Positions 2,784-54,198 of a stretch of 64,000 bases of DNA are shown piece after piece. Made by a program: the position numbers and the translations under genes. Under the pieces are notes generated by a model. That model was given only the letters and a program-made list of their open reading frames with translations, made no database searches and was not told the DNA's origin. This DNA comes from Armatimonadaceae bacterium (GTDB lineage: Bacteria > Armatimonadota > Armatimonadia > Armatimonadales > Armatimonadaceae), in the NCBI GenBank assembly GCA_030447685.1, contig JAUJOK010000009.1, positions 4,543 to 68,542 of the forward strand, written 5' to 3'. Every line of letters begins with the position of its first letter. Within the stretch, counting starts at the first letter, position 1.

Positions 2784-4733
2784 TCAGAAGACGCATTCCT
2801 CTATCTCATTCAGGTCGAAGTGGCGGAGGACGCCGCGCAGGATGACGCTGTAGATATCCTGCGTGTCGTAATGGCGCGCGCCGACCCAATCGGCGTAGCT
2901 GTTCATGCCGTCCGCGACTTCCACCCGCCGAATGCGCTCTTCCAGCAGGGCCGCGAGACGACCATACAGGCCGTGCCGTCCGTGCGCGTAGATTTCCACG
3001 TCGGACACATCGAGGTTCGGCCACTGCGCCAGCATGTCCAGGGCGCGCAGCACGTCGTAGGTTCGCAGGGCGGCCAGATCGTCATCGAGCCAGAGAAGGT
3101 CGGTGGCGATCTTATGGATGACGCCGTAGAAGGCGGTGGGCGAGGAGGCGGTGATGGAGCGTGGCGAGAGCGCGCCCGCGCCGGAGACATCCAGCACAAC
3201 GACGGCGCGGCCTGCGGCGCAGGTATTTCGCAGCCATTCCCGGTGCGGCTGAAGCCGGTTCGTCCCGCCGTCCCAGATCGCCAGCGTCACCGGCAGGTTC
3301 TGGTCGGCGCGGCGGAAGTCGCGAAAGGCATAGCCATTGCTGAAAAGCCCCTCCTGCGACCACCACAGACACATCTGCACGGCCATGTCTTCCCAGTGTC
3401 CCTTGTAGTAAAAGCGCGGGTTCAGGTCGCAGGGGCGGCGTTCGCGGTACACCTTTTCGCGCAGCCAGGCCACCGCCCGCGCCCGGCGTTCCGCTTCCGG
3501 CACGGCGGAGCGCTCCCGCGCCCGTTCTTCCAGACGCTCCCGGTTGGCCTCGTGGACAAAAGCGGCATCTGTAATCTCGCCGCGCACCTGGCCGGATGCC
3601 ATGCACCATAACTGTTCCGGGACGAACGGGGCGATGCTCCCCTCATCGAAAGCGGCGTCCCGGTTCAGCAGATGGCGGGCGAAGAACGCGGCGGCGGCGC
3701 GGGCCATGTTCGCGTTGAAGGCGTGCGTGCTGTTTTCCTCGATCAGGTCCAGATAATCGTTTCTGCCGTACATCTCCCAAAAGCGTTTGCAGCGGCTTAC
3801 CGTGGCGCGCGTGCCTTCAATGGGAAAGAAATCGCTCGTGACGGCGAGGACGCGCACGGGGCGCGGGGTCATCGCCAGCAGGATGTCTTCATGGTCGAAG
3901 CCGCGCGCGGAAAAGCCGGGCCAGATCTGCTCGGCATCCTGCGCGCCGCCCGCGTGGAGATAGCTGCGGCGGCTCATGATAAAGGTGGCGGGAACGGCGG
4001 CGGCGATGCGCGTATCGGCTATCATCACCAGCGAGGTCTGCGTGCCGCCGCCGGAGTTGCCGGTGACGCCGATGCGCTGCGGGTCTACCTCGGGCCGACT
4101 GCACAAGTAGTCCACGCCGCGCAGGGCGTCCTGCAGAAAATAGCGCGCAATGGAGTCCCCCAGCGGAAGGCACTGCGCCCCGGCATGGTCGTGCTCATTG
4201 GTTCCCCAGGGCACCGTGCTGCCGCCGAGGGCGGGTTCATGATGACCCAGCCGCTCGCCCTGCCCCAGCGGGTCCTGCGCCAGCACGATCAGGCCTGCCT
4301 GCGCCAGATACTGACAGACTATCTGGTATTCCTCGACATGCTTGGCTTCGCGGTGATGCCCGCACAGGAACAGCACCGCGCCGCTCGGCCCCACAAGCCC
4401 GTCCGGCAGGTAAAGGTTCGCGGTGACATAGTTCCGGGGGCGCGATTGGAAAATCACCTTCTCAATACGGAAGCCGTTCCCGGCCACGGTTCCGACCGTC
4501 CGCGCCTCCAGCGGCGTCTCCGACGCAGGCAGTCCCCCCAGCGATTCCGTCAGGTACTGGCGAAGGGCGCGCTGCCGTTCTTCCAGAGCGGCGGGGGTGG
4601 TGATGGCGTCGCGCGCCGCATCACCGGCATCGAACGCCTGCTCGGAGCGGCGGTAGACATGCTGCTTGAGCTGATCGCCGACATCGTAGAACCCGTTCCC
4701 CGGCGAATGGTTCTCCAAATCCTGGAGCGTCAT
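2784..4733 (-). CDS. two-domain alpha/beta hydrolase, acetyl xylan esterase (AXE1/Abhydrolase_7)-like
   Basis: 662-aa ORF. Nucleophile elbow 'GVTGNSGGG' and 'HAFN' near the end of the first alpha/beta-hydrolase half; second half resembles a degenerate alpha/beta-hydrolase-like domain. Start set at the ATG of 'MTLQDLEN', which has purine-rich sequence upstream; the GTG at 4772 is an alternative. Confidence 0.7.
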   Translation of the reverse strand: MTLQDLENHSPGNGFYDVGDQLKQHVYRRSEQAFDAGDAARDAITTPAALEERQRALRQYLTESLGGLPASETPLEARTVGTVAGNGFRIEKVIFQSRPRNYVTANLYLPDGLVGPSGAVLFLCGHHREAKHVEEYQIVCQYLAQAGLIVLAQDPLGQGERLGHHEPALGGSTVPWGTNEHDHAGAQCLPLGDSIARYFLQDALRGVDYLCSRPEVDPQRIGVTGNSGGGTQTSLVMIADTRIAAAVPATFIMSRRSYLHAGGAQDAEQIWPGFSARGFDHEDILLAMTPRPVRVLAVTSDFFPIEGTRATVSRCKRFWEMYGRNDYLDLIEENSTHAFNANMARAAAAFFARHLLNRDAAFDEGSIAPFVPEQLWCMASGQVRGEITDAAFVHEANRERLEERARERSAVPEAERRARAVAWLREKVYRERRPCDLNPRFYYKGHWEDMAVQMCLWWSQEGLFSNGYAFRDFRRADQNLPVTLAIWDGGTNRLQPHREWLRNTCAAGRAVVVLDVSGAGALSPRSITASSPTAFYGVIHKIATDLLWLDDDLAALRTYDVLRALDMLAQWPNLDVSDVEIYAHGRHGLYGRLAALLEERIRRVEVADGMNSYADWVGARHYDTQDIYSVILRGVLRHFDLNEIEECVF

Positions 4734-5113
4734 GGCGAGAATCTTTTCTCTGGCGGAAAGCGTTACTGCCACTGTTAATTCGGCGGACAGAAGGACGTTT
4801 CCTGTGACGGGGTCAGCCGGGCGGTAAATGCGCCAACCTCCCGTTTAGCCGCGAAATAAGGTACCCTCACACGTAATCCCACCTGCGATAGAAAGTGCTT
4901 CCATGATTCCTGCCTCGCGCAGTGCGAACAAACCCGGCTGGCTGGTGGAGGGCACCTACACCGACTCGCCTGATGCTGCGAAGGTCATCTGTACCGGTGA
5001 CCGCACTGGTTACGGCAACGTCTACGAGGTCCAGGTCGGGAAGTGGGAGGGCTTGCCGCCGCTGGAATAATATGCGGAATTCACCTGCCTCAGCCGATAT
5101 ATCAAGAGGATAT

Positions 5114-5893
5114 ATGGCTACGGCAACGATAACCTGGGCGCGGGAAAAACCGGAAACCGCAGAGATATTCAGAACGCAGCGGATGACGCGCATCGGATTT
5201 CTGTTCGGCCTGCTGTTCCCTGTTGTTGGGATGATTATTGAGTGCGCGCGGCTGGGCCAGTTTACGCTGAGCGCCCTGCTGACCCTCCAAAGCCGAATGC
5301 CGCTGCTCTGGCTGCTGGATGCCGCGCCGTTCCTGCTGGGCGCACTCGGCTATTTTGTTCGCGTGCCGCAGCTTCTGGAAAGCGGCCATTTCTTCCCCCG
5401 GCGCAGGCTTATCCTGCGTATCGTTGCGACGGTTTTCGCCGCCGAACTGATGACGCTGCCGCTTTTGCCCCTGCTTTTGTCGGGCGCGGGGGGCGGCGGC
5501 TGGGTGGCCGCCGCAGCGGGCGGCGCGCTGCTGGCCCCGCTCAGCGCGCTGCTCGTCTATCTGTTCGTGGTGCGGCCCCTGTGCCGCAGTTCGCTTCAGG
5601 AAATGGCGCGGACGAACGCCGTTCTGGACGCCTCGGTGGACGCCGTGTTCGTGCTGGACGCCTGGGGTGTCATCCACTCCTTTAATCCCGCCGCGCAGAC
5701 TATTTTCGGCTACACGGCGGCGGAGGTGGCGGGGCAGAATGTGCGACTGCTGCTGCGGCGCGCGCGGTCGAGCGGGGCGCGGGTGGTGGGCGCCGGAGTG
5801 TCGGAGCAGGCGCAGGCGGTGGCGGTTGAGCGGGAAGTGACGGCGCGGCGTAAGGACGGCACATCGTTCCCCGCCCATCTGTCTGTCCGCTAG
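5114..5893 (+). CDS. N-terminal part of a membrane sensor (multi-TM domain plus first PAS domain); ends at an in-frame TAG in mid-PAS and is contiguous in frame with the next CDS
   Basis: RBS 'aagagga' 4-5 nt before ATG 5114. TM segments 'IGFLFGLLFPVVGMII', 'MPLLWLLDAAPFLLGALGYFV', 'LPLLPLLLSGAGGGGWVAAAAGGALLAPLSALLVYLFVV'. PAS text '...RKDGTSFPAHLSVR' stops at TAG 5891-5893. Confidence 0.6.
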   Translation: MATATITWAREKPETAEIFRTQRMTRIGFLFGLLFPVVGMIIECARLGQFTLSALLTLQSRMPLLWLLDAAPFLLGALGYFVRVPQLLESGHFFPRRRLILRIVATVFAAELMTLPLLPLLLSGAGGGGWVAAAAGGALLAPLSALLVYLFVVRPLCRSSLQEMARTNAVLDASVDAVFVLDAWGVIHSFNPAAQTIFGYTAAEVAGQNVRLLLRRARSSGARVVGAGVSEQAQAVAVEREVTARRKDGTSFPAHLSVR

Positions 5894-8047
5894 ATGCGCC
5901 TGGGCGCGCGGTCTCTGTTTATCGCCGTTCTGCGCGATATTACCGAAGGCAAGCGCGCGGAAGAGGCGCTTCGTCTTTTCGAGGAACGGTTCCGCCTGGT
6001 GCTGGAGGGGCTGAAGGATCACGCCGTCTTTCTGCTCAGCCTGGATGGCCGCGTCGTTACCTGGAACGCCGGGGCGGAGCGCATTCAGGGATATGCGGCG
6101 GACGAGATCGTCGGCCAGAACTTTTCCTGTTTTTATCCCGATGACGAAGTGAAGCGCGGTGCGCCCGAGCACGAACTGGCAGCCGCGAGGGACGGCTCCC
6201 CGTACGAGGGCGAGGGCTGGCGCGTGCGTAAGGACGGCTCGCGATTCTGGGCGATAACGACGCTCACCGCGTTGCGTAACGAATCGGGCAAGGTGCGCGG
6301 CTTCGCCCTGGTTATCCGCGATATTACCGAGCGGCAGGAGGCGCAGGAGGCGCTGCGGCAGGCACAGGAAAAGTACCACGGCGTTCTGGAGCAGGCCGTC
6401 ATCGGCTCGTTTGAAACTACGCCGGGCGGGCGCTTTATCCGGGTCAATCCGGCGCTGGCGCGTCTGTGCGGTTATGAGTCGCCCGCCGAGATGAAAAAGC
6501 GGATCACCGACATCGGGCAGCAGTTGTACGTGGAGCCGGAGCGGCGCGCGCAGTTCGTCCACCTGATGCGCGAGCACACCGCTCTGTCCGAATTTGAATC
6601 GCGCGTCTATCGCAAAGACGGCAGCATTATCTGGATCAATGAAACCGCGCGGGCAGTCCGGGACGTTCGCGGCGCACTGCTTCACTACGAAGGCATGGTG
6701 GAAGATGTCACCAAGCGCAAAGCGGTAGAGATACAGCTTCTGCATGACGCCTTTCATGATAAGCTGACGGGCTTGCCGAACCGCGCGCTGTGCCTCGACC
6801 GGGTGGGACAATCCATCGCGCGGGCGCAGCGCAGCCCGGACTATTTGTTCGCGGTGCTTTTGCTCGATTTAGACCGTTTCAAGGTTGTCAACGACAGTCT
6901 GGGGCCGACCGTCGGCGACCGGATGCTGGTTGAGATTGCGCGCCGTTTGGAGCAGTGCCTGCGCCCCTCCGATACCGTTTCGCGCCTGGGCGGGGATGAG
7001 TTCGCGCTGTTGCTGGATGGAATTAAAGATGTCGGTGACACCATTCATGTGGCCGAGCGGGTACAGCAGGAGCTGGCCGCGCCCTTCGTTTTGGGCGGAC
7101 AGGAGGTATTTGCCGGGGCCAGCATCGGGATCGCCCTGAGCGCGACCGGCTATGAGCAGGCCGAGGATGTTCTGCGCGACGCCGATATCGCCATGCACCG
7201 GGCCAAGACACTGGGCAAATCGGGACATGAGATGTTCGACACGGTCATGCACGCCCGCGCCGTGAAGCGGCTGGAGATAGAGACCGATCTGCGGCGGGCT
7301 ATCGAGCGGGAAGAGTTCCGCGTGTTTTACCAGCCTATCGTTTCGCTGGAAACCGGCGAAATTACCGGCTTCGAGGCGCTGGTGCGCTGGCAGCACCCGG
7401 AGCGCGGCCTGGTGTCCCCGGCGGAGTTTATCCCCGTGGTCGAGGAGACGCGCCTGATACTTCCACTCGGGCGGTGGGTGCTGCGCGAATCATGCCGCCA
7501 GTTAAAAGAGTGGCAGACGCGTTTTCCCGAGCATCCGCCGCTGACAGTCGCGGTGAACCTTTCGGGCAGGCAGTTCGAGCAGCCGGATTTGATCGCGCAT
7601 ATACGGCAGATTCTGGAGGAAACGCAGCTTTCCCCAGGCCGCCTGAAACTGGAAATTACCGAAAGCGTGATCATGGAGAACGCCGACTCGGCGTCCGCCC
7701 TGCTTTTGCAGATACGCGAGATGGGTATCGAGCTGGCGATTGACGACTTCGGCACCGGCTATTCGTCGCTCAGCTATCTGCACCGCTTCCCGATCAACGC
7801 GCTGAAGATCGACCGCTCGTTTGTCAGCCGCATCGGGGCGCAGGGCGAGAACGCAGAGATAGTCCGCACTATCATTGCGCTGGCGGACAATCTGTGCCTG
7901 GACGTGGTGGCGGAGGGCGTGGAGACGGCGGAGCAGTTAGCGCATCTGCGCGCGCTCCATTGCCGCCACGGGCAGGGCTACTTTTTCAGCAAACCGATAG
8001 AAGCCGCCGCCGTGGAAAGCCTTCTCGTCCGCCGCCCGACCTGGTAA
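5894..8047 (+). CDS. PAS-PAS-GGDEF-EAL c-di-GMP turnover protein (continuation of the upstream sensor ORF)
   Basis: 717 aa. 'IAVLRDITEGKRAEE' completes a PAS fold; second PAS follows; GGDEF motif 'RLGGDEFALLL'; EAL motif 'FEALVRW' plus 'DDFGTGYSSLSYL'. ATG sits directly after the TAG in the same frame (frame 2). Confidence 0.85.
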   Translation: MRLGARSLFIAVLRDITEGKRAEEALRLFEERFRLVLEGLKDHAVFLLSLDGRVVTWNAGAERIQGYAADEIVGQNFSCFYPDDEVKRGAPEHELAAARDGSPYEGEGWRVRKDGSRFWAITTLTALRNESGKVRGFALVIRDITERQEAQEALRQAQEKYHGVLEQAVIGSFETTPGGRFIRVNPALARLCGYESPAEMKKRITDIGQQLYVEPERRAQFVHLMREHTALSEFESRVYRKDGSIIWINETARAVRDVRGALLHYEGMVEDVTKRKAVEIQLLHDAFHDKLTGLPNRALCLDRVGQSIARAQRSPDYLFAVLLLDLDRFKVVNDSLGPTVGDRMLVEIARRLEQCLRPSDTVSRLGGDEFALLLDGIKDVGDTIHVAERVQQELAAPFVLGGQEVFAGASIGIALSATGYEQAEDVLRDADIAMHRAKTLGKSGHEMFDTVMHARAVKRLEIETDLRRAIEREEFRVFYQPIVSLETGEITGFEALVRWQHPERGLVSPAEFIPVVEETRLILPLGRWVLRESCRQLKEWQTRFPEHPPLTVAVNLSGRQFEQPDLIAHIRQILEETQLSPGRLKLEITESVIMENADSASALLLQIREMGIELAIDDFGTGYSSLSYLHRFPINALKIDRSFVSRIGAQGENAEIVRTIIALADNLCLDVVAEGVETAEQLAHLRALHCRHGQGYFFSKPIEAAAVESLLVRRPTW

Positions 8048-8488: not shown

Positions 8489-9926
8489 GCGCGCCTGGAA
8501 AGCATAAACGCCCTTCTCGCGCGGGTACTTGTAGTCAACAACGGTGTCCGCGCCCTCTGGGAACCCGAAGCCCAGCGCCGCGCTTCTTTGAGTGCATCTC
8601 CCGGTGAATCCGCCTCAACGTGGACACTGCCGCTAACCTATATTTCATAGATGGGCATGAGTTGTACTACCGTTCCTTCGAATAAGGGAGCACCTAACGA
8701 CTGTTCAACAACGGCACGGATTTGGCTCTTTGGGGAGAAAGGGAAGTCCTACTTGGCCGCCTGTTCTCGGGCGTCAAAGATGGAGTTGCCCTCTTTGTCA
8801 GTCACCTCGATGTTGCCGCCATCCGGTGTCGCCGCCAGCGTAATGGCAAGCTGCTCGCTCCCCGCATGAATAATGTCCAGCCAGCCGCCGTGCAGATCAC
8901 AGCCCATCGTCACCCGCATTTTGCCGTCCAGGCTGTTTACGTGAATGTAACCGCCGTCGTTGTCGGCGCGGAGAGTTCCAGCACTACCTTGCCCTCCGTG
9001 TTGGCAATCCGAGCGGAGCAGTCGCGGTGATGCCATCAGCACCTTCGACGGCCAGGAAGGCGTTGGACAAGCGAGCTATCGTCTCCTCGGCACGCGCAAG
9101 CCGCCGCTCCAGTTCTCCGCACTCGCTCGTCCATCTCTGTAGGTCTTTCCTTCCAGGAGCGGCACTTCGCTTTTCGTATAAAGGCGACGTCATGCCTTGT
9201 GTGACCGAAGTCGGCAATCAACCGCTCGTAGATTCGCGATTGTTCACTTCATTATCGCACACGTTCTCATCAACGCGTTTTGTAACAGATGGTTAATGCC
9301 CGCAGCCGCAGTCGCACGTACAGCGTTTTGACGGCTCGCTACCGGCGGAAGCAGCGTCCACGGCGGACGTGCCTTTGGCGCGGATTTGCAGCCCGCCGTT
9401 GTTCACGTCTATACGCAGGCTGCCGTTTTCCTCCGGCGAGCGCCAGTCGCTGCGAAGCCCCTGCTCATCCACCGTCAGCGAAAACGCCTCCTGCTCCTTT
9501 TCCTGCACCGAAACCGTGGGGACAGCAGCGGCAGCGAGCGCGCGGTTCCGCCTGCCCCGGTACCGGAAGAGTTCGCCGAAACCGCCGCCAGAAAGACCAG
9601 TAAGCAGAACGTCCCCAGTCCCGCCGCGAAAAGCGTCCATTCCCTGCTGCTCAGTCGCATCGCCATTTCCTTTCCTGTCTCCCGAAGTGCATGGATAAGA
9701 CCCCCTCGCGTGCATCCAGGTTGCGCCCGCGCAGGCTGCCTGTTTCTGCTCCTGAAGAAACACCCCGTAGCGAGCCGATAATACGAGAGAGAAGCGTCGA
9801 AATGGGCGCGGATGGCGAAGCAAATCCTGGTAAAACACCCGCCAGTAAAAGTGTGTGGTAATTGCGCGGGGTTATGGCACAACCAAATCAGAGACGGTTC
9901 TAAAGTTACGAAATGAGGAATATCGA

Positions 9927-29586: not shown

Positions 29587-31905
29587 ATGAAAGCCAGAAC
29601 CATCACCCACGTTTTCGCACTGCTCGTCGGCGCGCCGCTGCTGCTTCTGTTGCCTGCCCGCGCCCAGGAGGAGGCGGGCCACATGCACGGCCCCGATGGG
29701 CGGCATATCGCCGTCGCCAGCACCTTCGGGGGCCAGGCAGCAGGGCAGCGGAGCATCCTGAGCCACCACGACCTGATGATTACCGATTTGCGCCAGCCTG
29801 GTCCCGACAGGAACGGCAAGGTGGTCGAGGGCTGTGACGTACATTCGGTGATCCACAAGAAGGGTGACCCGAAAGCGGTCATTCACCGCGAGCACAACAC
29901 CTTCGAGCCTGAAAACGGTGTGTACGGCTCGCACATGATGTACCGCGAGCCAGGGGAGTATGTCATTATCGAGAAGGTCACTCTGCCCGATAAGCAGCAG
30001 GTGACTCTGGAGTTCCCGATATGGGTGCCCGCTCCCCAGGGTCAGGCTGAGCACGCCCATCACTCCCCCTGGTGGACAGTACTCGGAGTTGCCGCAATCC
30101 TCCTCGCCATACTGGGTGCATTTCTTTTGGGGAGGCGCAGCGGGCGGCGAACGGTGGCGATGCTGTCTATCGTCGCTCTGGTCACGGGTTCCCTCCCCAT
30201 TGTTCCCACGGCTCATGCGCAGGAAGACGGAGAAGAAGCGGGTCATATGCACGGCCCTGACGGGCGGCACGTCGCCGTTGCCAGTACGTTCGGGGGCGGC
30301 AATGCGCAGGAGCCGCTACGGGCCTACCCCACCGCCGACCGACAGGAGGCCGCCGTCCAGACCCAGGGACACTACCGCTTCCGCCTGTCCATCGAGAACG
30401 AGGAAATGGCCCCGCCTGACCCCGATGTCGTCACCATCTCGTCCGATGCGGCGAAAACCGTCGGGCTGACAACAGTCGCGGCGCGGGCGGCGCGGGGGAC
30501 GAGCGCACTGACGACAACAGGTCAGGTGAAGCCAAACCCGAACCGTGCCGCAACCGTGAACGCGCGTGTCGCGGGGCGCGTGGTGCGCGTAGGGGTGACG
30601 CCAGGAGATGAGGTGAGCGCGGGCCATGTCGTCGCTGTGCTCGACAGCGCCGAAATAGCCCAGGTCCAGGCTGATTTACGCCGAGGCGCGTCTGAGATCG
30701 CCCAGTCGGACGCCGCTGCCGCGCGCGCCCGCTCCCAAATTGCCGAGGCACAGGCCAACCAAGAGCGCGCCCGTGCCGAGGCAAGTCAGGCGCAGGGGCA
30801 GGTGCGGAACGCCGAACGTACTCTGGCACGCCAGCGGGAACTTGCGCGGTCAGGCGCGTTCGCTTCGGGTCCCGTCGAAGCCGCGCGTTCTGCCGTTGCG
30901 ACTGCCGAGGGCGAACTGAACGTTGCGCGCACAGCGCTTGCAACCCTGGAAGCGCAGGCGCGCCGCCTGGAAACAGGCGTCGCCGATGGTGTGGTATCCC
31001 GCCGCGAGGCCGAGACTGCTCAGAGCGCCGCCGCCCAGGGCCGCACCCGCGTCGAAACCGCCCAGCGGCAACTAACGATTGCACGGGCGGCGCTTGCCCG
31101 TGAAGAACAAATCCAGCGCCGCGGGCTGCGCGACGCGCGCGAAGTGCAGCAGGCCCAGGCCGATCTTGCCGCAGCCCAGGCTGCGCTGCGAGCCGCGAAC
31201 GCCGTGGTTCAGAGCGAGGCACGGCGGGTTCAGGCTGCCCGCGGCGGCGCGGCGGAGGCAGAGGCAACGCGCACACGGGCGCGCACCAATCTCGCTTCGG
31301 CGCGCAACCGATTGCGGTTGCTCGGCGCAACGCCCAGCGGCGGCAGTCAGGTGACGGTGGTGACACCACTGGGGGGCGAGGTGGAGGCGCGGCCCGTCAG
31401 CGCAGGCGAAGTGGTGGAGGCGGGGCAGACGCTCGCACGCATCCTGAACACGGACAGCGTGTGGGTCGAGAGCGACGTGTTCGAGAAAGACTTGCCACAA
31501 GTGCGCGTCGGCCAGGCCGTGACTATCGCCGCCGACGCCGTTCCTGGCCGCACCTTCCAGGGGCGCATTTCTTATATTGGTGGCGCGGTGAACCCTGAAA
31601 CTCGCGCCGTGCGTGTCCGCACCGCAGTCACCAACCCTGGCGAGGTGCTCAAGCCCAATATGTTTGTTCGGGTGCTTGTCGGCGCAGGCCGAGGTCGTGC
31701 GATTCTCGTGCCCCAGGAGGCTGTCCAGGAGGACGGGAACGAGCAGGTCGTCTTCATCCAGGAAGGGGAAGGCTACCGCCGCCGCGCTGTTCGGATCGGC
31801 GCGACGCTGGGTGACATGGCAGTGATCGAAGGGGGGCTGAAGGCGGGTGACAAGGTGGTCACGCAAGGCGCGTACCAGTTGCTCGCCTTGGCGAAGAAAG
31901 GATAA
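29587..31905 (+). CDS. RND efflux membrane fusion protein (CzcB/CusB-like) with two tandem N-terminal HMHGPDGRH-motif modules
   Basis: 772 aa. Signal '...LLLLPARAQEEAGHMHGPDGRHIAVASTFGG' then a roughly 130-aa module. A second hydrophobic segment follows, 'WWTVLGVAAILLAILGAFLL...AHAQEDGEEAGHMHGPDGRHVAVASTFGG'. Then canonical HlyD/MFP lipoyl, hairpin coiled-coil and beta-barrel ('VVAVLDSAEIAQ...', 'RVGQAVTIAADAVPGRTFQGRISYIG'). Confidence 0.85.
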   Translation: MKARTITHVFALLVGAPLLLLLPARAQEEAGHMHGPDGRHIAVASTFGGQAAGQRSILSHHDLMITDLRQPGPDRNGKVVEGCDVHSVIHKKGDPKAVIHREHNTFEPENGVYGSHMMYREPGEYVIIEKVTLPDKQQVTLEFPIWVPAPQGQAEHAHHSPWWTVLGVAAILLAILGAFLLGRRSGRRTVAMLSIVALVTGSLPIVPTAHAQEDGEEAGHMHGPDGRHVAVASTFGGGNAQEPLRAYPTADRQEAAVQTQGHYRFRLSIENEEMAPPDPDVVTISSDAAKTVGLTTVAARAARGTSALTTTGQVKPNPNRAATVNARVAGRVVRVGVTPGDEVSAGHVVAVLDSAEIAQVQADLRRGASEIAQSDAAAARARSQIAEAQANQERARAEASQAQGQVRNAERTLARQRELARSGAFASGPVEAARSAVATAEGELNVARTALATLEAQARRLETGVADGVVSRREAETAQSAAAQGRTRVETAQRQLTIARAALAREEQIQRRGLRDAREVQQAQADLAAAQAALRAANAVVQSEARRVQAARGGAAEAEATRTRARTNLASARNRLRLLGATPSGGSQVTVVTPLGGEVEARPVSAGEVVEAGQTLARILNTDSVWVESDVFEKDLPQVRVGQAVTIAADAVPGRTFQGRISYIGGAVNPETRAVRVRTAVTNPGEVLKPNMFVRVLVGAGRGRAILVPQEAVQEDGNEQVVFIQEGEGYRRRAVRIGATLGDMAVIEGGLKAGDKVVTQGAYQLLALAKKG

Positions 31906-48056: not shown

Positions 48057-49667
48057 TCAATTTCCTCCGTAGCTATACTGGCGCGCTTTCTGGTTCGCCC
48101 GCAGGTGATCCGAAAACCCCTTGTTGAAGGTACCACGCTCGGATGTCACCCGCTCCGCCGCCGCCGTTTCCCCAAGCGCCTTGTACACGTCCGCCAGCGC
48201 CTCATAACCCGTCAGGACAATAAAGCCGCCGCTGTTGAACATGCCCAAGTCGTTCACACCCAGTGGCAAAGCCTTGTTGCCCAGGTTGCCCATGATCTTG
48301 TAGCCCATAGCCACCACGGCGCGGGCGGCACGCAATGCCTCGCGCTCGTTTCGCTGCCCCGCCGCCACGCGGGCGTAGCCTGAAGCGGACAGAGAGACCG
48401 TGTGCCAGATTGTTGGATTACTGGTATCGGAGGAGGCCCCCATCAACACGCGGAGGTTCCAGGCACCTTTCAGAAGTGCCGGGACGGGAGCCTGGTAGAG
48501 CGGCGCAACGTAGCGCGGCGCTTTGTTGCCGCGCTCAATACTTGCTACCGCCTCCTGAGCCGTTTTCTCGCTTTCTTTGCTGCTTGCCGCCAGCACGCGC
48601 TTCCCGGTCTCCGCATACGTCGGCGGACGGTAACCGTTTAACCGGCGCAGGCGAACGGCTTCCTGCAACTCTTTGTGAAAGAGGCTATAGGGCGTTTCAT
48701 AGAACAGAAGCCCTGCCAGCCGGTACAGGGGGTAGGCATTGCCGGGGTCACTGAGAGCCGCCTGACGCAGCGCCTCCTTTGCCTGCTCCGGGTCGTCGGT
48801 TCTTTGAAGGTCGTACAGACGGTACCAGAGCGTGGCATTGCGCTTCTGCAAAGACAGAGCCTGACGGTAGGCAGCCAATGCTGCGGGTTTGTCCCTGGCT
48901 CCCCGCGCGTTCGCGCTCTCGCCGATATGCGCATCGCCCAGCGACTGCCAGCAGCGCGCATCGGCAGGGTCTTCTTCCGTGGCCGCGAGAAAAGCCTTTG
49001 TCACCTCTTCCGCTTCCGGCAGACCCTCGATGTCTAATGGCTGGCTGTCATAGCCGATCCAGCCACGACTGCGCAGGAGGCGCACTCCCCAGCCGCGCAC
49101 GTAGTGCGCCTCGGCACGCTCACTCTTTGTCGTGGCAAGCTCAAGCGCCCTGTCCCATTCGGCTATGGCCTGCTTGCCCAGCGAACGAATCTGTGTCATG
49201 GCTTCCGGAAGTGTGAGGGTAAAGGGCTGGTTGTCGTCCCTGGTGCGAAAAGACGGAAGTTGTGGGCGGGGCTTACCATAAAGGGGATCGTTCTCATCCT
49301 TCTGCGCGGCTTCCCACGCCGCCAGACGCTGCGGGTATCCGGCCTGGGCTTCGGAGAACCAGCTAAGGCGGGAAGCGGCATCTGCGAGCGAGGCGGCGCG
49401 GCTGGCATAGGCGCAGCCCAGCGCCAGCCGATACTGCTGACTTTTCGACTCCTGGCGCACCGCCTCTTCCAAATGCGCGGTTGCACGCTCAAAACTACGG
49501 CCTCGCTTCAGGAAATCAATGCCATACGCATACCGCTCCGCTGCAGAGTTGCCAGCGCCCAAGGTCGATGCAGCATTCCTTTCCTGCGCCCCTGCAGGGA
49601 CAGGGAGAATGGCAATCAAGATCGCTGGAAGAACAAAGCCGGTTCTCAATACAGCCGTAACTTTCAT
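48057..49667 (-). CDS. tetratricopeptide-repeat protein with signal peptide
   Basis: 536 aa; signal 'MKVTAVLRTGFVLPAILIAILPVPAGAQE'; multiple TPR-like A/L/Y-rich repeats. Confidence 0.7.
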   Translation of the reverse strand: MKVTAVLRTGFVLPAILIAILPVPAGAQERNAASTLGAGNSAAERYAYGIDFLKRGRSFERATAHLEEAVRQESKSQQYRLALGCAYASRAASLADAASRLSWFSEAQAGYPQRLAAWEAAQKDENDPLYGKPRPQLPSFRTRDDNQPFTLTLPEAMTQIRSLGKQAIAEWDRALELATTKSERAEAHYVRGWGVRLLRSRGWIGYDSQPLDIEGLPEAEEVTKAFLAATEEDPADARCWQSLGDAHIGESANARGARDKPAALAAYRQALSLQKRNATLWYRLYDLQRTDDPEQAKEALRQAALSDPGNAYPLYRLAGLLFYETPYSLFHKELQEAVRLRRLNGYRPPTYAETGKRVLAASSKESEKTAQEAVASIERGNKAPRYVAPLYQAPVPALLKGAWNLRVLMGASSDTSNPTIWHTVSLSASGYARVAAGQRNEREALRAARAVVAMGYKIMGNLGNKALPLGVNDLGMFNSGGFIVLTGYEALADVYKALGETAAAERVTSERGTFNKGFSDHLRANQKARQYSYGGN

Positions 49668-49682
49668 ATCCTTCTCCTTGGA

Positions 49683-49751
49683 GTCAGGTCAACACGCGGG
49701 CGTCGCCCTGACGGCGGATGAACTTCTGCGCGTCAAAATACTCCAGAAGCG
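49683..49751. repeat. direct repeat copy A: duplicate of the selB 3' end (last about 22 codons plus stop); copy B at 50683-50751
   Basis: 'gtcaggtcaacacgcgggcgtcgccctgacggcggatgaacttctgcgcgtcaaaatactccagaagcg' versus 'gtcaggccagcacgcgggcgtcgccctgacgccgggtgaacttctgcgcgtcgaaatactccagaagcg'. About 64 of 69 identical, exactly 1000 bp apart, bracketing the vapBC-like cassette. Confidence 0.75.
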
Positions 49752-49757
49752 CAGTAG

Positions 49758-50216
49758 TCAGGGTGTAATGTTCTTCCACTCCGCTGCCGGTACGAACCAG
49801 GACAGATGGCTGACATTCGTGGTAGCAACAAGGTAGTCCGAAGCAGAAAGTCCCAGGCTTAGCGCCTGCGCCGCCAGGATGACGTCGCCGTCCAGGGCGT
49901 CAGCAGAAGCCATAGGCCGCCCGCCGCGCCGGGCCTGTCCCCACAGACGCGCCGCCTCTTCCAGGTGCGCCGTAGTGAGCGGGAGGAAGCGTCCCGGCTG
50001 TAGACAGAACGCCTTGAGCCGTGCGATTTGGCTGGTTGCCTGGCGCTGCTCCAGCTCTCGCAGAACTTCATAATAGCAGATGGCTGGCACCAAGACCGTG
50101 TGTCCCGCCCTCTCACAATCATTCACCCACCGGTGACACTCGTCGGATAAGGAGAGCGTCTTTCCAGGCCGCTTGGCGACGCTGCTTGTCGGAAAGGAGT
50201 CCAGAACCAGAATCAT
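49758..50216 (-). CDS. vapC: PIN-domain toxin (VapC-like)
   Basis: 'MILVLDSFP...YYEVLRELE...SADALDGDVILAAQA' carries the PIN acidic residues. 4-nt overlap with the upstream antitoxin ORF. Confidence 0.75.
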   Translation of the reverse strand: MILVLDSFPTSSVAKRPGKTLSLSDECHRWVNDCERAGHTVLVPAICYYEVLRELEQRQATSQIARLKAFCLQPGRFLPLTTAHLEEAARLWGQARRGGRPMASADALDGDVILAAQALSLGLSASDYLVATTNVSHLSWFVPAAEWKNITP

Positions 50217-50590
50217 CGGTCAGTCGGTCCGACATCTAACGAGAAGCGGTTTTCACGGAGTCCTTTCTCTACTTCTTCCCAGAGCCGGTCCTCCGCTTCC
50301 CGCTCCGCGTCGGTCATCGCCGTATCCGCCTCTTCCCACTGCCGGAAAAGCGCCTGGGTAGGAGTCTCGCCGGGACGGACAGAAGGGGGTGCGGCAAGGG
50401 GCGTGTTATCCTGCGTTTGCCACCGGGCAAGCAGCGCCTGCACCCGGTCCGCTGACGGCACACTGGCGATGTCGGGCAGGCGTTCGATCACCAGTCTCTG
50501 GGCCAGTTCCGCCGGTTCCAATCCCTCCCGCCGTGCCACGGCGATAAGCTGCGTCTCTTGCTCTGGGGTTAGTTCTATCGTCAGCGTCAT
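50213..50590 (-). CDS. antitoxin partner of VapC (type II TA), small acidic protein
   Basis: 125 aa: 'MTLTIELTPEQETQLIAVARREGLEPAELAQRLVIERL'. Acidic C-terminus. TATAAT at 50628-50633 (minus) upstream. Confidence 0.65.
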   Translation of the reverse strand: MTLTIELTPEQETQLIAVARREGLEPAELAQRLVIERLPDIASVPSADRVQALLARWQTQDNTPLAAPPSVRPGETPTQALFRQWEEADTAMTDAEREAEDRLWEEVEKGLRENRFSLDVGPTDR

Positions 50591-50683
50591 CGGAGCGAGC
50601 CTTCACATTTCTTCTGGAAACAGGTGTATTATAGCCCCACGGGCCGTAGGACACACTATAAGAACGCCCCAGCAGCCAAAATG

Positions 50684-52615
50684 TCAGGCCAGCACGCGGG
50701 CGTCGCCCTGACGCCGGGTGAACTTCTGCGCGTCGAAATACTCCAGAAGCGGCAGGACATACTTGCGCGACGAGCCGGTGGCGTCCCGGACAGTGGCGAC
50801 GGTGATGCCTTCCGGTGTGCTTGCCAGGCGGCGGATAGCCTCCCTGACCTCCGCCATCGCCTCGACGGAAAAAAACATATCCTCGGCGATGCGGATTACC
50901 TGCCCCTGCTCGGCCAGGATATTGAGCAGCGTGCGGACCGGCACATCGCGCGGGTAGCCGCGCTGGAGGTCGTCCAGGTTCGGCGGCTGAAGCCCCCCCC
51001 GGCGCACGGCGGCAAGCACGGTGTCGGCGTGGGGCTGCCAGCCGGGGGGCATGGTCACATCATGCTCGGGCAGGCGCACGCCGGTCGCCCCTTCGACCAC
51101 CAGAACGCCTTCGTTTTCCAGGAACGACAGCAGAGCGGCGAAATCACGCACGGCAGCGGCTTTGGCGAGCGGGGCGCGCAGTCCGGCCTCCGACATGGCT
51201 TTGCGCAGCGGGTTCTGCTTATGAGAGGTGGCAAGCGTGCGGCGGGCCGTTTCACGCAGACGCTCGGCAGCGACATCGGAAAGCCAGCGCCCGTTGGGAA
51301 GCGAGGCTGCTTTGTTTTGCTCCTCCAGCGTGAGCAGAGCCGCGCGCACCGTTTCTTCCTCGATTCCGCTTGCAGCGGCAAGCTCGCCCGTACTGAAATC
51401 GGCGTGGCGGGCGGACAGGGCGGCGTAGACGTTTGCGGTAATGTCGTCGGCGCTGCGGGCGTCGAACAGGGCGAGCGCGGCCTCGTCGCCCCGACGGTAG
51501 CGGCGGGCGGGCGCGGGATCGAGCACGACACCACCGGCGACGGCACGCTGCGGGGAATAGGTACGGACGACGAACCGCTCGCCGCGCGCGGGGGCGGCGG
51601 GCGTTTCGCACAGCAACTGCACCGGCACATCCGCTGCGCCCGGTGCCATTTCATTGCCTTCGAGAAGCAGCAGGCGGGCCAGCACTTCGCCGGTGCCCAG
51701 ATGCAGCCGGACGCGCTCCCGGTGGCGCAGGGCGCGCGGCGCGGATGCCAGCAGCGACAGGTGGGCGTCGAATAGCTGCGTCGCCGCCAGCGTACCCGGC
51801 GGGCACAGAACCGCTCCCCGCTCGATCTGCGTCACCTCGATACCCGGCAGGTTGACGGCGACACGCATCCCGGCTGTCACTCGCTCGACGCGCCGGTTAT
51901 GCGTTTGCAGCGTCCGCGCCCGTGTCGGCAGGTTCTGCGGCTGCACGGCGATAACGTCGCCCGCGTTCAGCGTTCCGGCCACCAGTGTTCCCGTCACGAC
52001 CGTTCCGACGCCGGGCAGGGAGAAGACGCGATCCACCGGCAGGCGAAACGGGGCGGACAGATCGCGCGGCGCGGCCTCGGAGGCGGCCCCGGCAAGCGCG
52101 GCGAGCAGCGCGGCACGGCCCTCCCCGGTTTCGGCGGAGACCGAGATTAAAGGCGCATCACGCAGGGGCGTCGTTTCCAGCGCCTCGCGTGTCAGTTCTA
52201 CGGCGAATTCGCGCAGGTCGGCGTCGGCCAGGTCGGCTTTGGTCAGGGCGACGACGCCGCGCGCCACACCTAACAGCGTCAAAATGTCCAGATGCTCGCG
52301 TGTCTGCGGCATCGGCCCCTCATCGCTTGCGACTACCACGAGCGCGACATCGACGCCGCCCGCGCCCGCCAGCATGTTTTTGACAAAGCGTTCGTGCCCC
52401 GGCACATCCACAATGCCCGCCTCGATAGGCGGCGCGCCCGGCGCGGTGGACGGCAGCGAAAGGAAGGCGAAGCCCAGGTCAATGGTCATGCCACGCGCCT
52501 TTTCCTCGGCCAGACGATCCGTGTCCGTCCCGGTCAGCGCGCGGATCAGGGTCGTCTTGCCGTGGTCTACGTGGCCTGCCGTGCCAATGATGATATGGCG
52601 AACTGCTTCAGGCAT
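50684..52615 (-). CDS. selB: selenocysteine-specific elongation factor SelB
   Basis: 'MPEAVRHIIIGTAGHVDHGKTTLIRALTGTDTDRLAEEKARGMTIDLGF' is the EF-Tu-like GTPase domain. Long C-terminal winged-helix region to 'KFTRRQGDARVLA'. Confidence 0.9.
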   Translation of the reverse strand: MPEAVRHIIIGTAGHVDHGKTTLIRALTGTDTDRLAEEKARGMTIDLGFAFLSLPSTAPGAPPIEAGIVDVPGHERFVKNMLAGAGGVDVALVVVASDEGPMPQTREHLDILTLLGVARGVVALTKADLADADLREFAVELTREALETTPLRDAPLISVSAETGEGRAALLAALAGAASEAAPRDLSAPFRLPVDRVFSLPGVGTVVTGTLVAGTLNAGDVIAVQPQNLPTRARTLQTHNRRVERVTAGMRVAVNLPGIEVTQIERGAVLCPPGTLAATQLFDAHLSLLASAPRALRHRERVRLHLGTGEVLARLLLLEGNEMAPGAADVPVQLLCETPAAPARGERFVVRTYSPQRAVAGGVVLDPAPARRYRRGDEAALALFDARSADDITANVYAALSARHADFSTGELAAASGIEEETVRAALLTLEEQNKAASLPNGRWLSDVAAERLRETARRTLATSHKQNPLRKAMSEAGLRAPLAKAAAVRDFAALLSFLENEGVLVVEGATGVRLPEHDVTMPPGWQPHADTVLAAVRRGGLQPPNLDDLQRGYPRDVPVRTLLNILAEQGQVIRIAEDMFFSVEAMAEVREAIRRLASTPEGITVATVRDATGSSRKYVLPLLEYFDAQKFTRRQGDARVLA

Positions 52616-53549: not shown

Positions 53550-54065
53550 TCACTTGATACCTTGCTTGCTGGCAAAAGCGAGTTGCTTATCGGTCTCATC
53601 ATAAATGATAACGATTGATTCTGCGCCCAAGTCTTCGTGAGCCTGCTCGGCAAGCCTTCGTGCTTCGAGAACTGAGAAGGTGCCGCCTTTGACCGTAATC
53701 AGCATGATATGAGTGTGGTTCGGGTCTTGTCGATTAACTTTGATGCGCGGAGATGATTCTTCAAGGGCCGTCTTTACGGCACCGTACTGTTGGGGGCTTA
53801 CCGCATTTCGCCGACGCGCCTTTTCAGTTTCATTTTCTCGCGCAATTGCGCCCCTGTGCGCGCATTGTGCATAGCCGAACCCAAGTACGAGGAACAGAGC
53901 CAGAACAGGAACCACCACGAACAAAGTTCGGAGCCTGCCCGGACGATCCCGTTTGACTGCCGCCGCAACACCCACAGGCTTTCGTATCGGCGCTCCGCAG
54001 CCGGGACACTTTCCGGCTTCATCGGAAACGTATCTGCCGCATTCAGGGCACTTCGTTAAAGGCAC
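53550..54065 (-). CDS. zinc-ribbon plus single-TM protein, hypothetical
   Basis: 'MPLTKCPECGRYVSDEAGKCPGCGAP' zinc ribbon; TM 'LFVVVPVLALFLVLGFGYA'. RBS 'aggaag' 6 nt before the GTG. Confidence 0.6.
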   Translation of the reverse strand: MPLTKCPECGRYVSDEAGKCPGCGAPIRKPVGVAAAVKRDRPGRLRTLFVVVPVLALFLVLGFGYAQCAHRGAIARENETEKARRRNAVSPQQYGAVKTALEESSPRIKVNRQDPNHTHIMLITVKGGTFSVLEARRLAEQAHEDLGAESIVIIYDETDKQLAFASKQGIK

Positions 54066-54198
54066 TATTTACTTCCTGCCGAATAGTAGGAGGAGATTTC
54101 TTGCCCAATCAGGCGGAATCCTCCGGCCAACAAAAAGAGCCTGGCCTGGAGAGGGAGGCTCTTTGTGTCGCAGTGACCGGGTTTGCCCCGAAGGCAGT

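What the first reader, a model, noticed from the sequence alone, without database searches (positions are those of the whole stretch)
49683..50751. vapBC-like toxin-antitoxin cassette inserted immediately downstream of selB, bracketed by 68-bp direct repeats of the selB 3' end spaced exactly 1000 bp apart
- The last about 22 codons plus stop of selB (50684-50751) recur, about 93% identical, at 49683-49751, on the far side of a PIN-toxin (49758-50216) and antitoxin (50213-50590) pair.
- The cassette is therefore flanked by a duplication of its insertion target, much as integrative cassettes or islets are.
- This resembles target duplication by a site-specific or homology-facilitated insertion event, with the TA module as possible addiction cargo.
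- Having the 3' end of a translation-factor gene as the target is notable.
Basis: seen in the sequence. Interest (0 to 1): 0.6.

Follow-up and report, generated by a model that had tools for sequence, protein, structure and literature searches.

The report
Toxin-antitoxin islet inserted behind selB
A two-gene toxin-antitoxin "addiction" cassette sits directly behind the selenocysteine factor gene selB, between two copies of that gene's last 22 codons; related cassettes elsewhere carry the same scar, which suggests such cassettes spread by recombining with the ends of host genes.

Summary
A 69-nt direct repeat (64/69 identical, 1000 nt apart) brackets a VapBC-type pair placed 1 nt after the selB stop codon. 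The selB-attached copy matches outgroups at 4 of 5 variable sites. The distal copy is a decaying pseudo-end that abuts the ribosome-binding site (RBS) of the next gene.

No close relative exists in the databases, so no empty site could be found for this locus. The architecture does recur:
- Of 58 independent loci with homologous cassettes, 6 have flanking repeats stronger than all 3000 non-cognate controls, and 4 more reach p<0.006.
- In most of these, the repeat is the 3' end plus stop codon of a neighbouring gene.
- A mazEF pair behind selB in a Rokubacteria genome has a 105-nt repeat, empty sites in relatives, and a mosaic showing a single reciprocal crossover with an imported selB-end copy.

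The closest homologues of the window's cassette are fused to a tyrosine recombinase gene. The window has none.

Best reading: a recombinase-less integrative islet resembling a cis-mobilizable element (CIME), whose addiction cargo resists loss. The enzyme responsible is unresolved. selB is not a statistically supported hotspot.

The parts
50684..52615 (-). selB, the selenocysteine-specific elongation factor (643 aa). This is the target gene and it is intact.
   Evidence: Pfam finds GTP_EFTU, GTP_EFTU_D2, Beta-barrel_SelB, SelB-wing_2 and SelB-wing_3. Homologues are full-length.
50683..50751 (-). Repeat copy R1: the last 22 codons of selB, the TGA and 1 nt. This is the functional end of selB (attL-like).
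   Evidence: It agrees with outgroups L081, L082 and L001 at 4 of the 5 sites where the copies differ.
50591..50682 (-). 92-nt cassette leader. It carries a TATAAT box at 50628-50633 preceded by GGGGC, and a GAAGG Shine-Dalgarno sequence.
   Evidence: Read directly. The GTGCTA[ACT]AAT box is conserved in L167, L083 and L168. The consensus promoter scan found no full -35/-10 pair, so the promoter is inferred only.
50213..50590 (-). Antitoxin gene (125 aa). Its stop overlaps the toxin start by 4 nt.
   Evidence: ORF. It is conserved upstream of the PIN gene in most homologous loci. Pfam gives only sub-threshold hits, to ParD and NikA-like families.
49758..50216 (-). PIN-domain (VapC-like) toxin gene (152 aa).
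   Evidence: Pfam PIN scores 23.3 bits against a cut-off of 23.6. The AlphaFold2 model has pLDDT 94.9. The best Foldseek PDB hits are all VapC toxins, with TM 0.6-0.7. D6, E50, D109 and D111 are invariant across 32 homologues.
49752..49757 (-). 6-nt cassette tail (CTACTG) between the PIN stop codon and R2.
   Evidence: In the closest homologue, L167, the corresponding bases open a tyrosine recombinase gene (ATGACCACC...).
49683..49751 (-). Repeat copy R2: a displaced pseudo-copy of the selB 3' end (attR-like).
   Evidence: It carries 4 of the 5 derived changes, including Thr to Ile at a Thr that is invariant in 15 SelB relatives.
48057..49667 (-). Downstream gene for a TPR-repeat protein with a signal peptide. 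Its AAGGAG RBS (49674-49679) starts 4 nt after R2, so this is the native downstream context of selB.

Best explanation
**What it is.** The 931 bp from 49752 to 50682 (leader, antitoxin, PIN toxin, 6-nt tail) form a foreign VapBC-type addiction cassette.

**How it got there (inferred).** It entered the chromosome by one reciprocal crossover, a Campbell-type integration. The partners were the 3' end of selB and a circular DNA carrying its own copy of that 3' end next to the TA genes.

**What that crossover produces.** One repeat copy (R1) keeps selB intact. The other (R2) is left as a useless pseudo-end in front of the original downstream gene. The locus is therefore a minimal integrative islet with attL- and attR-like repeats and no recombinase of its own. 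The closest known label is a cis-mobilizable element (CIME).

**Why it persists (inferred).** The TA pair makes cells that lose the cassette by recombination between the repeats non-viable or arrested, so the islet outlives any other DNA that came with it.

**Shown here:**
- the insertion architecture;
- that R2 is the decaying copy;
- that the architecture recurs in this TA family;
- that in an independent selB case (L045) the site is empty in relatives and the repeat mosaic is that of a single crossover with an imported copy.

**Still inferred:** that the window's event followed the same route, which enzyme did it, and post-segregational killing. The enzyme could be a tyrosine recombinase once encoded after the PIN gene and since lost, one acting in trans, or RecA.
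For: 1. **Architecture.** R1 is the in-frame end of selB. R2 lies 6 nt after the PIN stop codon and 15 nt before the start codon of the next gene.

2. **R2 is derived.** Outgroups side with R1 at 4 of 5 variable sites. R2 has Thr to Ile at an invariant Thr.

3. **Recurrence.** Among 58 independent loci with homologous cassettes, 6 have flanking direct repeats above all 3000 non-cognate controls (null maximum 17.2; observed 24-65). Four more reach p<0.006. By contrast, 0.84% of 2500 random pseudo-cassettes in 892 kb of control DNA reached a comparable score. The repeat is the 3' end plus stop codon of the neighbouring gene in L089, L105, L162 (cassette in opposite orientation), L173 (moaA) and L112.

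4. **L045 (Rokuibacteriota).**
   - A mazEF pair behind selB is bracketed by a 105-nt repeat of the selB end.
   - Five relatives have selB directly followed by the tatA region, i.e. empty sites.
   - R1 is 87% identical to the closest relative L014, matching the 84-85.5% seen over 6.3 kb. R2 is 95% identical to L014. The C-terminal tails are swapped. This is the mosaic expected from a single crossover with an imported copy.

5. **Coding constraint.** Pooled dN/dS between repeat copies over 98 codons is 0.22 (bootstrap 95% interval 0.10-0.45; P(>=0.5)=0.013). The copies therefore diverged mostly under coding constraint.

6. **Recombinase link.** The closest PIN homologues (77-82% identical) are followed by a co-evolving Xer-like tyrosine recombinase gene that overlaps the PIN stop or starts within 8 nt of it (L083-85, L168). 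L167 has a 95-aa remnant of that gene.

7. **Tandem accretion.** L112 has two different PIN cassettes in tandem, separated by a fragment of the same gene end. Accretion of this kind is described for CIMEs and integrative mobilizable elements (IMEs) in PMC5704250.
Against: - No empty site and no donor-like relative could be found for the window itself. Both copies share lineage-specific residues (EYFDAQKF against EYLDAQRF in relatives), so import cannot be shown here.
- No tyrosine recombinase is detectable in the 64-kb window, and the neighbours are core genes.
- The intact antitoxin-PIN-recombinase unit in L083, whose flanks are available, has no detectable flanking repeat.
- In all repeat-bracketed PIN cassettes the junctions are tight: 0-50 nt after the PIN gene and 10-125 nt before the antitoxin gene. 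Random decay of a larger island does not obviously predict that.
- RecA-driven crossover in 69 nt of imperfect homology would be inefficient.
Confidence: 0.58

Rival explanations
1. In-place target-site duplication. The cassette alone was inserted just after the selB stop codon at a widely staggered break, or by replication template switching. The cell's own 69 nt were copied on both sides. No imported copy of the gene end and no site-specific recombination were involved.
For: - The boundaries are tight around the two genes in all repeat-bracketed PIN cassettes.
- There is no recombinase and there are no terminal inverted repeats.
- Both window copies share lineage-specific residues, and nearly all changes lie on the R2 branch, as expected if R2 simply decayed in place.
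Against: - Pooled dN/dS between the copies is 0.22. About 0.5 is expected if one copy were neutral from the start; P(>=0.5)=0.013, on a small sample that excludes two frameshifted cases.
- In L045 the distal copy is demonstrably foreign: 95% identical to L014, against 87% for the resident copy.
- In the window and the PIN-family cases with an intact stop codon, the repeat ends 0-8 nt after that stop codon; in L045 it ends 4 codons before the stop. A DNA-level staggered cut does not explain the stop-codon coincidence.
Confidence: 0.15
2. Allelic replacement. A fragment carrying a related strain's selB with the TA pair already behind it recombined in, homologous on the left and illegitimate on the right. 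It overwrote the resident selB except for its last 69 nt, which survive as R2.
For: - It predicts the same picture: R1 functional, R2 a decaying stump next to native downstream DNA, and homology ending at the stop codon.
- It needs no recombinase, consistent.
Against: - In the one case that can be tested (L045) the resident copy R1 is the native one and the distal copy is foreign, which is the opposite of this model.
- The model only moves the question of how the TA pair came to sit behind selB into the donor.
- There is no compositional break at selB relative to the rest of the window: selB runs at about 0.66-0.73 GC in 300-nt windows, and another 2-kb stretch of the window reaches 0.70.
Confidence: 0.12
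3. Remnant of a larger island whose own integrase gene sat directly after the PIN gene. Successive deletions removed the integrase and all other DNA, stopping only where function forbids: the selB stop codon, the antitoxin start and the PIN stop codon. This is a sub-variant of the best explanation that names the enzyme.
For: - The closest homologues are antitoxin-PIN-tyrosine recombinase units; L167 keeps only 95 aa of the recombinase.
- In L162 and L112 the junction has eaten into the PIN stop codon, so the PIN reading frame runs into the repeat. That looks like deletion limited by function.
Against: - Seven of seven repeat-bracketed PIN cassettes have lost everything else, with no intermediate that still has both repeats and a recombinase remnant.
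- L083 has a recombinase but no repeats.
- The mazEF case L045 also has no recombinase.
Confidence: 0.3

Closest known systems
CIME (cis-mobilizable element): a decayed integrative element that keeps attL and attR but has lost its integrase and transfer genes. Related are IMEs that integrate in the 3' end of housekeeping genes (review PMC5704250, read).
   Same: [quoted passage not shown]
- There is no recombinase between the repeats.
- TA modules are common maintenance cargo.
- Tandem accretion at the same gene end is seen in L112.
   Different: - The element is only 0.93 kb and holds nothing but the TA pair.
- No parental integrase-bearing element with the same repeats was found.
- The target, the selB 3' end, is to my knowledge not a described integration site.
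- Mobilization in trans is untested.
VapBC type II toxin-antitoxin systems (PIN-domain RNase toxin plus DNA-binding antitoxin).
   Same: - The antitoxin gene lies upstream and overlaps the toxin gene by 4 nt.
- The toxin has a PIN fold whose nearest solved structures are VapC toxins.
- Acidic residues are invariant across homologues.
   Different: - Sequence similarity to curated models is marginal: Pfam PIN is just below its cut-off, and NCBIfam and PADLOC give no hit.
- The antitoxin matches no family above threshold.
- Activity is untested.
TA modules that stabilize integrated elements or chromosomal segments, such as SgiAT of SGI1 (PMC5704250).
   Same: An addiction module sits inside a repeat-flanked segment that could otherwise be lost by recombination.
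   Different: Here the TA pair is the only content, so it stabilizes nothing but itself.
Microcystis aeruginosa ParE/ParD-like pair behind the MaOC1 orthocaspase gene, fenced by two identical 152-bp direct repeats (PMC7935541).
   Same: A TA pair directly downstream of a gene, with a direct repeat on each side.
   Different: Those repeats are intergenic, starting 14 bp after the stop codon. They are identical to each other and contain inverted repeats. They are not a copy of the gene's coding end.

Membership tests
VapBC type II toxin-antitoxin | Toxin has a PIN-domain fold with conserved acidic residues | tested here: met
   The AF2 model has pLDDT 94.9. Of the top 30 Foldseek PDB hits, 29 are VapC toxins or other PIN-domain proteins. 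D6, E50, D109 and D111 are invariant in 32 homologues. Pfam PIN scores 23.3 bits, just under its 23.6 cut-off.
VapBC type II toxin-antitoxin | Small antitoxin gene immediately upstream, translationally coupled to the toxin gene | tested here: met
   Antitoxin 50213-50590 and PIN 49758-50216 overlap by 4 nt. The pair is conserved together in most homologous loci.
VapBC type II toxin-antitoxin | Antitoxin carries a recognizable DNA-binding domain (RHH, AbrB, HTH or PHD) | tested here: inconclusive
   No Pfam or NCBIfam hit at E<=0.01 for the window's antitoxin. There are weak hits to ParD (E 0.03 for the window, 0.005 for L167) and NikA-like (down to E 9e-6 for the L089 homologue, 26.2 bits against a cut-off of 27), both below the curated cut-offs.
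VapBC type II toxin-antitoxin | Toxin arrests growth and the antitoxin neutralizes it | not testable with these tools
   Needs expression experiments.
CIME / decayed integrative element | [quoted passage not shown] | tested here: met
CIME / decayed integrative element | No integrase or transfer genes between the repeats | tested here: met
   Only the two TA ORFs fit in the 931 bp. There is no tyrosine recombinase in the whole window.
CIME / decayed integrative element | Descends from an element that had an integrase using the same att site | tested here: inconclusive
   The closest TA homologues are fused to a tyrosine recombinase and L167 has a remnant. None of these shows selB-end or other flanking repeats.
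CIME / decayed integrative element | Empty site in relatives | tested here: inconclusive
   For the window, no relative is closer than 77% SelB identity and none is syntenic. For the analogous selB case L045 the feature is met.
Transposon / insertion sequence | Transposase gene, terminal inverted repeats and a short target duplication of fixed length | tested here: not met
   There is no third ORF. No inverted repeat lies at the cassette ends. The duplications are 25 to more than 105 nt and vary in length.
Integron gene cassette | attC recombination site after the ORF, and a nearby intI/attI platform | tested here: not met
   Only 6 nt separate the PIN stop codon from R2. The repeat does not fold significantly better than shuffles (z -1.2 and -2.2). 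There is no tyrosine recombinase in the window.

The most novel reading that the evidence does not exclude
Type II toxin-antitoxin pairs of unrelated families (vapBC, mazEF) may spread between related genomes as recombinase-less mini-circles. Each would carry a copy of the last 10-35 codons of a host gene as a portable attachment site. It would integrate by a single crossover at that gene's end, excise by recombination between the resulting repeats, and update its gene-end copy from each host. That would be a general and so far undescribed route for chromosomal TA mobility, and it would explain why TA pairs so often sit alone between core genes.
Probability: 0.25. Interest if true: 0.75.

Novelty: new variant of a known kind. 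Interest (0 to 1): 0.55.

Why it matters
Chromosomal TA pairs are famously mobile, yet most carry no mobility gene, and how they move is largely unexplained. This locus and its analogues give a concrete, sequence-level scar: a duplicated gene end. In one case they also give direct evidence of a single crossover with an imported copy of the gene end.

If the pattern is general, it offers a searchable signature for recent TA insertions and a way to date them from decay of the pseudo-end. It would also be a testable model of selfish persistence, in which addiction counteracts repeat-mediated deletion. For genome annotation, it flags short pseudo-ends of genes as insertion scars rather than noise.

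Tried and rejected
- **Empty site for the window.** selB relatives (L001 at 70%, L081 at 76%, L082 at 75%) have unrelated downstream genes. TPR-gene relatives (L176, L177) are not preceded by selB. Exact-protein look-ups of the window's own PIN and SelB found no contig on record.
- **Hairpin or attC-like structure in the repeats.** A GTCAGG...CCTGAC inverted repeat ends both the window repeat and the L105 repeat, but folding z-scores are unremarkable. Only the L114 terminator is significant.
- **Promoter inside R2 for the TPR gene.** No consensus promoter or terminator lies in 49500-50900.
- **Compositional anomaly.** The cassette is 0.56-0.66 GC in 300-nt windows, against a window mean of about 0.64.
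- **Phage origin.** There is no relative in 2.9 million viral contigs. Only 4 cyanobacterial plasmids carry a relative.
- **selB as a hotspot.** Among 68 other selB loci, only L045 (mazEF) and one ParE-like ORF lie within 1.3 kb downstream, and tatA is the usual neighbour. Only L045 has a second copy of the selB end.
- **Flanking repeats around the recombinase-bearing units.** None was found in L083, L084 or L168.
- **Other strong repeats in the control DNA.** These are paralogous genes, REP/RAYT elements or intergenic repeats, not TA scars.
- **Literature.** Full-text searches for TA cassettes flanked by gene-end duplications found only the Microcystis intergenic-repeat case.
Full report
**Observation.** The window holds one 69-nt direct repeat at 49683-49751 and 50683-50751. 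It is 64/69 identical, ungapped, and spaced exactly 1000 nt. A 31-nt core of it occurs nowhere else in the 64 kb and never in 100 shuffles. A whole-window scan found only one other direct repeat of at least 60 nt, inside a single ORF.

All relevant genes are on the minus strand:
- selB 50684-52615
- antitoxin 50213-50590
- PIN toxin 49758-50216
- a TPR-repeat gene 48057-49667

**Anatomy, read along the minus strand.**
- selB ends with copy R1: its last 22 codons, TGA and 1 nt.
- A 92-nt leader follows, with a TATAAT box at 50628-50633.
- Next come the antitoxin gene and the PIN gene, which overlap by 4 nt.
- After the PIN stop codon there are 6 nt (CTACTG), then copy R2.
- Four nt after R2 comes the AAGGAG ribosome-binding site of the TPR gene.

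R2 together with what follows it looks like the original selB-to-TPR junction. R1 together with what precedes it is the working gene.

**Gene identities.**
- *SelB.* It has the full set of SelB domains.
- *Toxin.* It is only marginal against Pfam PIN (23.3 bits, cut-off 23.6) and has no NCBIfam or PADLOC hit. An AlphaFold2 model built on 32 homologues has pLDDT 94.9. Its best PDB matches are VapC toxins and other PIN-domain proteins, with TM 0.6-0.7. D6, E50, D109 and D111 are invariant across the homologues.
- *Antitoxin.* It matches no family above threshold. Weak hits to ParD and NikA-like families hint at a ribbon-helix-helix N-terminus.
- *Host.* The host is an Armatimonadota bacterium. 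The best SelB matches are 77% identical in metagenomes, 70% to an Armatimonadaceae MAG and 63% to Armatimonas rosea.
- *Neighbourhood.* Neighbouring genes are core functions: sulfite/nitrite reductase, an RND efflux system and pdxS/pdxT. No tyrosine recombinase is detectable in the window.

**Which copy is the original?** Both copies share residues peculiar to this lineage: EYFDAQKF, against EYLDAQRF in all 15 nearest relatives. The duplicated sequence therefore comes from this lineage or a very close one. At the five sites where the copies differ, outgroups L081, L082 and L001 side with R1 at four. R2 carries Thr to Ile at a Thr that is invariant in the family. R2 is the copy evolving without constraint.

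**No empty site for the window.** The closest selB loci have unrelated downstream genes. The closest TPR-gene homologues, at 45-48% identity, are not preceded by selB.

**Recurrence in the same TA family.** The PIN protein has more than 500 relatives in the protein collection, the best at 82% identity. I fetched 80 metagenomic loci and 9 further contigs.

Nucleotide homology between cassettes on different contigs stops a few to about 30 nt after the PIN stop codon and within about 100 nt upstream of the antitoxin start. The same cassette therefore sits in many unrelated contexts.

I aligned the region around the antitoxin start against the 150 nt after the PIN stop codon in 58 non-redundant loci:
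- 6 loci scored above every one of 3000 non-cognate pairs (null maximum 17.2; observed 24-65).
- 4 more reached p<0.006.

In 892 kb of control DNA, 21 of 2500 random pseudo-cassettes (0.84%) reached a comparable score. All of these lay in a few loci with paralogous or interspersed repeats.

**What the repeats are in those loci.**

| Locus | Repeat |
|---|---|
| L089 | Last ~20 codons plus stop of the upstream gene (...VESNLTKIVQPTPTAMK*), repeated 17 nt after the PIN stop codon and followed by the native terminator |
| L105 | Last 16 codons plus stop; the distal copy is frameshifted |
| L162 | Cassette in the opposite orientation; the repeat is the end of the convergent downstream gene (a BTAD regulator), and the PIN reading frame runs into it |
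| L173 | Last 8 codons plus stop of moaA (VEMSHIGG*), recurring as VETSHIGG* |
| L112 | Two different PIN cassettes in tandem, separated by a 70-codon 3' fragment of a restriction-modification-like gene; a further decayed copy follows the second cassette |
| L114 | The upstream gene's terminator hairpin |
| L135/L133/L144 | A different thing: a multi-copy 24-nt motif |

In the cases where the stop codon is intact, one edge of the repeat lies 0-8 nt past the neighbour's stop codon.

**An independent selB case with empty sites.** I scanned 74 other selB loci for a second copy of the selB end and found one, L045, from a Candidatus Rokuibacteriota genome.
- A 105-nt repeat (7787-7891 and 8796-8900, 90% identical, spacing 1009) brackets a mazF/mazE pair on the opposite strand. 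tatA follows.
- In L058, L054, L033, L068 and L056, selB runs straight into the tatA region. These are empty sites.
- The closest relative, L014, is 84-85.5% identical to L045 over 6.3 kb, including selB.
- Over the repeat, R1 is 91/105 identical to L014, which matches the genomic average. R2 is 100/105 identical. At about 10 of the 11 sites where R1 and R2 differ, L014 sides with R2.
- The short C-terminal tails are swapped. The R1 tail (RGAG*) resembles that of L014 (RGG*). The R2 tail continues into intergenic DNA homologous to the empty sites.

This is the mosaic produced by one reciprocal crossover, within the last ~20 nt of the repeat, between the host selB and a circle carrying an L014-like copy of the selB end. 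Duplication of the host's own sequence in place is excluded for L045.

**Constraint on the copies.** Over the five in-frame cases (window, L045, L089, L173, L162; 98 codons), dN/dS between the two copies is 0.22. The bootstrap 95% interval is 0.10-0.45, and only 1.3% of resamples reach 0.5, the value expected if one copy had been neutral since an in-place duplication.

There are three caveats. The sample is small. Two visibly decayed cases (L105 with a frameshift, L112 with a lost stop codon) are left out. The window alone (3 synonymous, 2 non-synonymous) is uninformative.

**Link to a recombinase.**
- In the three closest clades of the window's PIN (77-82% identity), the pair is followed by a Xer-like tyrosine recombinase gene that overlaps the PIN stop or starts within 8 nt of it (L083/84/85 and L168).
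- The two recombinases are 78% identical. L083 and L168 share only an 89-nt leader plus the three genes, and the homology ends exactly at the recombinase stop codon.
- L167, the closest homologue at 82%, keeps only a 95-aa N-terminal remnant.
- Other near relatives (L169-L175) have none.
- No flanking repeat was found around the intact three-gene unit where both flanks are available.

**Synthesis.** The window's cassette is an insertion 1 nt after the selB stop codon. The repeat is the insertion scar, and R2 is its decaying half. By analogy with L045 and with the family-wide pattern, the most likely origin is Campbell-type integration of a small circle that carried a copy of the selB end.

That is the architecture of integrative elements that target the 3' ends of genes and of their recombinase-less derivatives, CIMEs, including tandem accretion (PMC5704250). 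Persistence of TA-only islets fits addiction: cells that delete the cassette through the repeats would be poisoned. I infer that last step from the known behaviour of TA modules; it is not shown here.

The enzyme is open. It could be a recombinase gene once located after the PIN gene and later deleted, a recombinase acting in trans, or RecA.

**Rivals.** Three alternatives remain possible for the window: in-place target duplication, allelic replacement of selB together with a TA pair, and decay of a larger island. The main arguments are:
- L045 and the dN/dS result argue against in-place duplication.
- L045 shows the opposite polarity to allelic replacement.
- The uniformly tight junctions, and the absence of intermediates with both repeats and a recombinase remnant, argue against simple decay of a larger island.

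**Is selB special?** There are two independent TA insertions at the selB end in two phyla. But among 68 other selB loci, only L045 and one ParE-like ORF lie just downstream. That is close to what TA density alone predicts, so I treat the coincidence as a hint and no more.

**Novelty.** The individual locus is a small member of a known kind. What I did not find described in four full-text searches is the recurrent, recombinase-less, TA-only form with gene-end repeats across TA families and phyla. The one reported TA pair "fenced" by repeats, in Microcystis (PMC7935541), has identical intergenic repeats, not gene ends.

Noticed in passing
L045:7787-8900 (Candidatus Rokuibacteriota contig JACPCF010000070.1): A mazEF pair on the opposite strand lies directly behind selB, bracketed by a 105-nt, 90%-identical repeat of the selB 3' end. 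Relatives have empty sites (selB followed by tatA). The distal copy is closer to another lineage (L014, 95%) than the resident copy is (87%).
   Followed up: yes
L112:248-1866: Two different PIN cassettes lie in tandem. The first PIN gene has lost its stop codon and reads in frame into a ~70-codon 3' fragment of a restriction-modification-like gene. A second antitoxin-PIN pair follows, then another decayed copy of the same gene end. This looks like accretion at one site.
   Followed up: partly
L083:509-2512, L168:2527-4477, L167:123-1230: Antitoxin-PIN-tyrosine recombinase units are conserved as a block. Homology between L083 and L168 ends exactly at the recombinase stop codon. L167 keeps only 95 aa of the recombinase. 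An inverted repeat with 33-nt arms lies 57 nt after the recombinase gene in L083 (2569-2684). In L168 the unit is followed by a C-terminal fragment of another tyrosine recombinase.
   Followed up: partly
L135:1-1682 (also L133, L144): At least six direct copies of a 24-nt motif, GGGGGCAAAGATTCTCGGAATTTC, occur at irregular spacing (64-875 nt). One interval holds the TA pair. The nature of this array is unknown.
   Followed up: partly
window:29668-29733 and 30232-30297: A 66-nt direct repeat, 83% identical, lies inside the 772-aa ORF 29587-31905. It is probably an internal domain repeat.
   Followed up: no
window:53481-53508 and 54116-54143: A 28-nt direct repeat, 82% identical, lies on either side of the small zinc-ribbon membrane protein gene 53550-54065. 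It is too short to judge.
   Followed up: no
L062:4090-5825: An IS200/RAYT-like ORF (4619-5446) is surrounded by REP-like repeats and a 176-nt, 89%-identical direct repeat, upstream of a Pyrinomonadaceae selB.
   Followed up: no
L014:6368-6500: In the closest relative of L045, selB is not followed by tatA. Instead there is unrelated sequence with the end of an ORF on the opposite strand. This may be another insertion at the same site, but the contig ends too soon to tell.
   Followed up: no
window:50683-50712 and L105:147-176: Both repeats end with GTCAGG-N15-18-CCTGAC, with the stop codon in the 3' arm. Folding energies do not differ significantly from shuffles, so this is probably coincidence.
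   Followed up: yes
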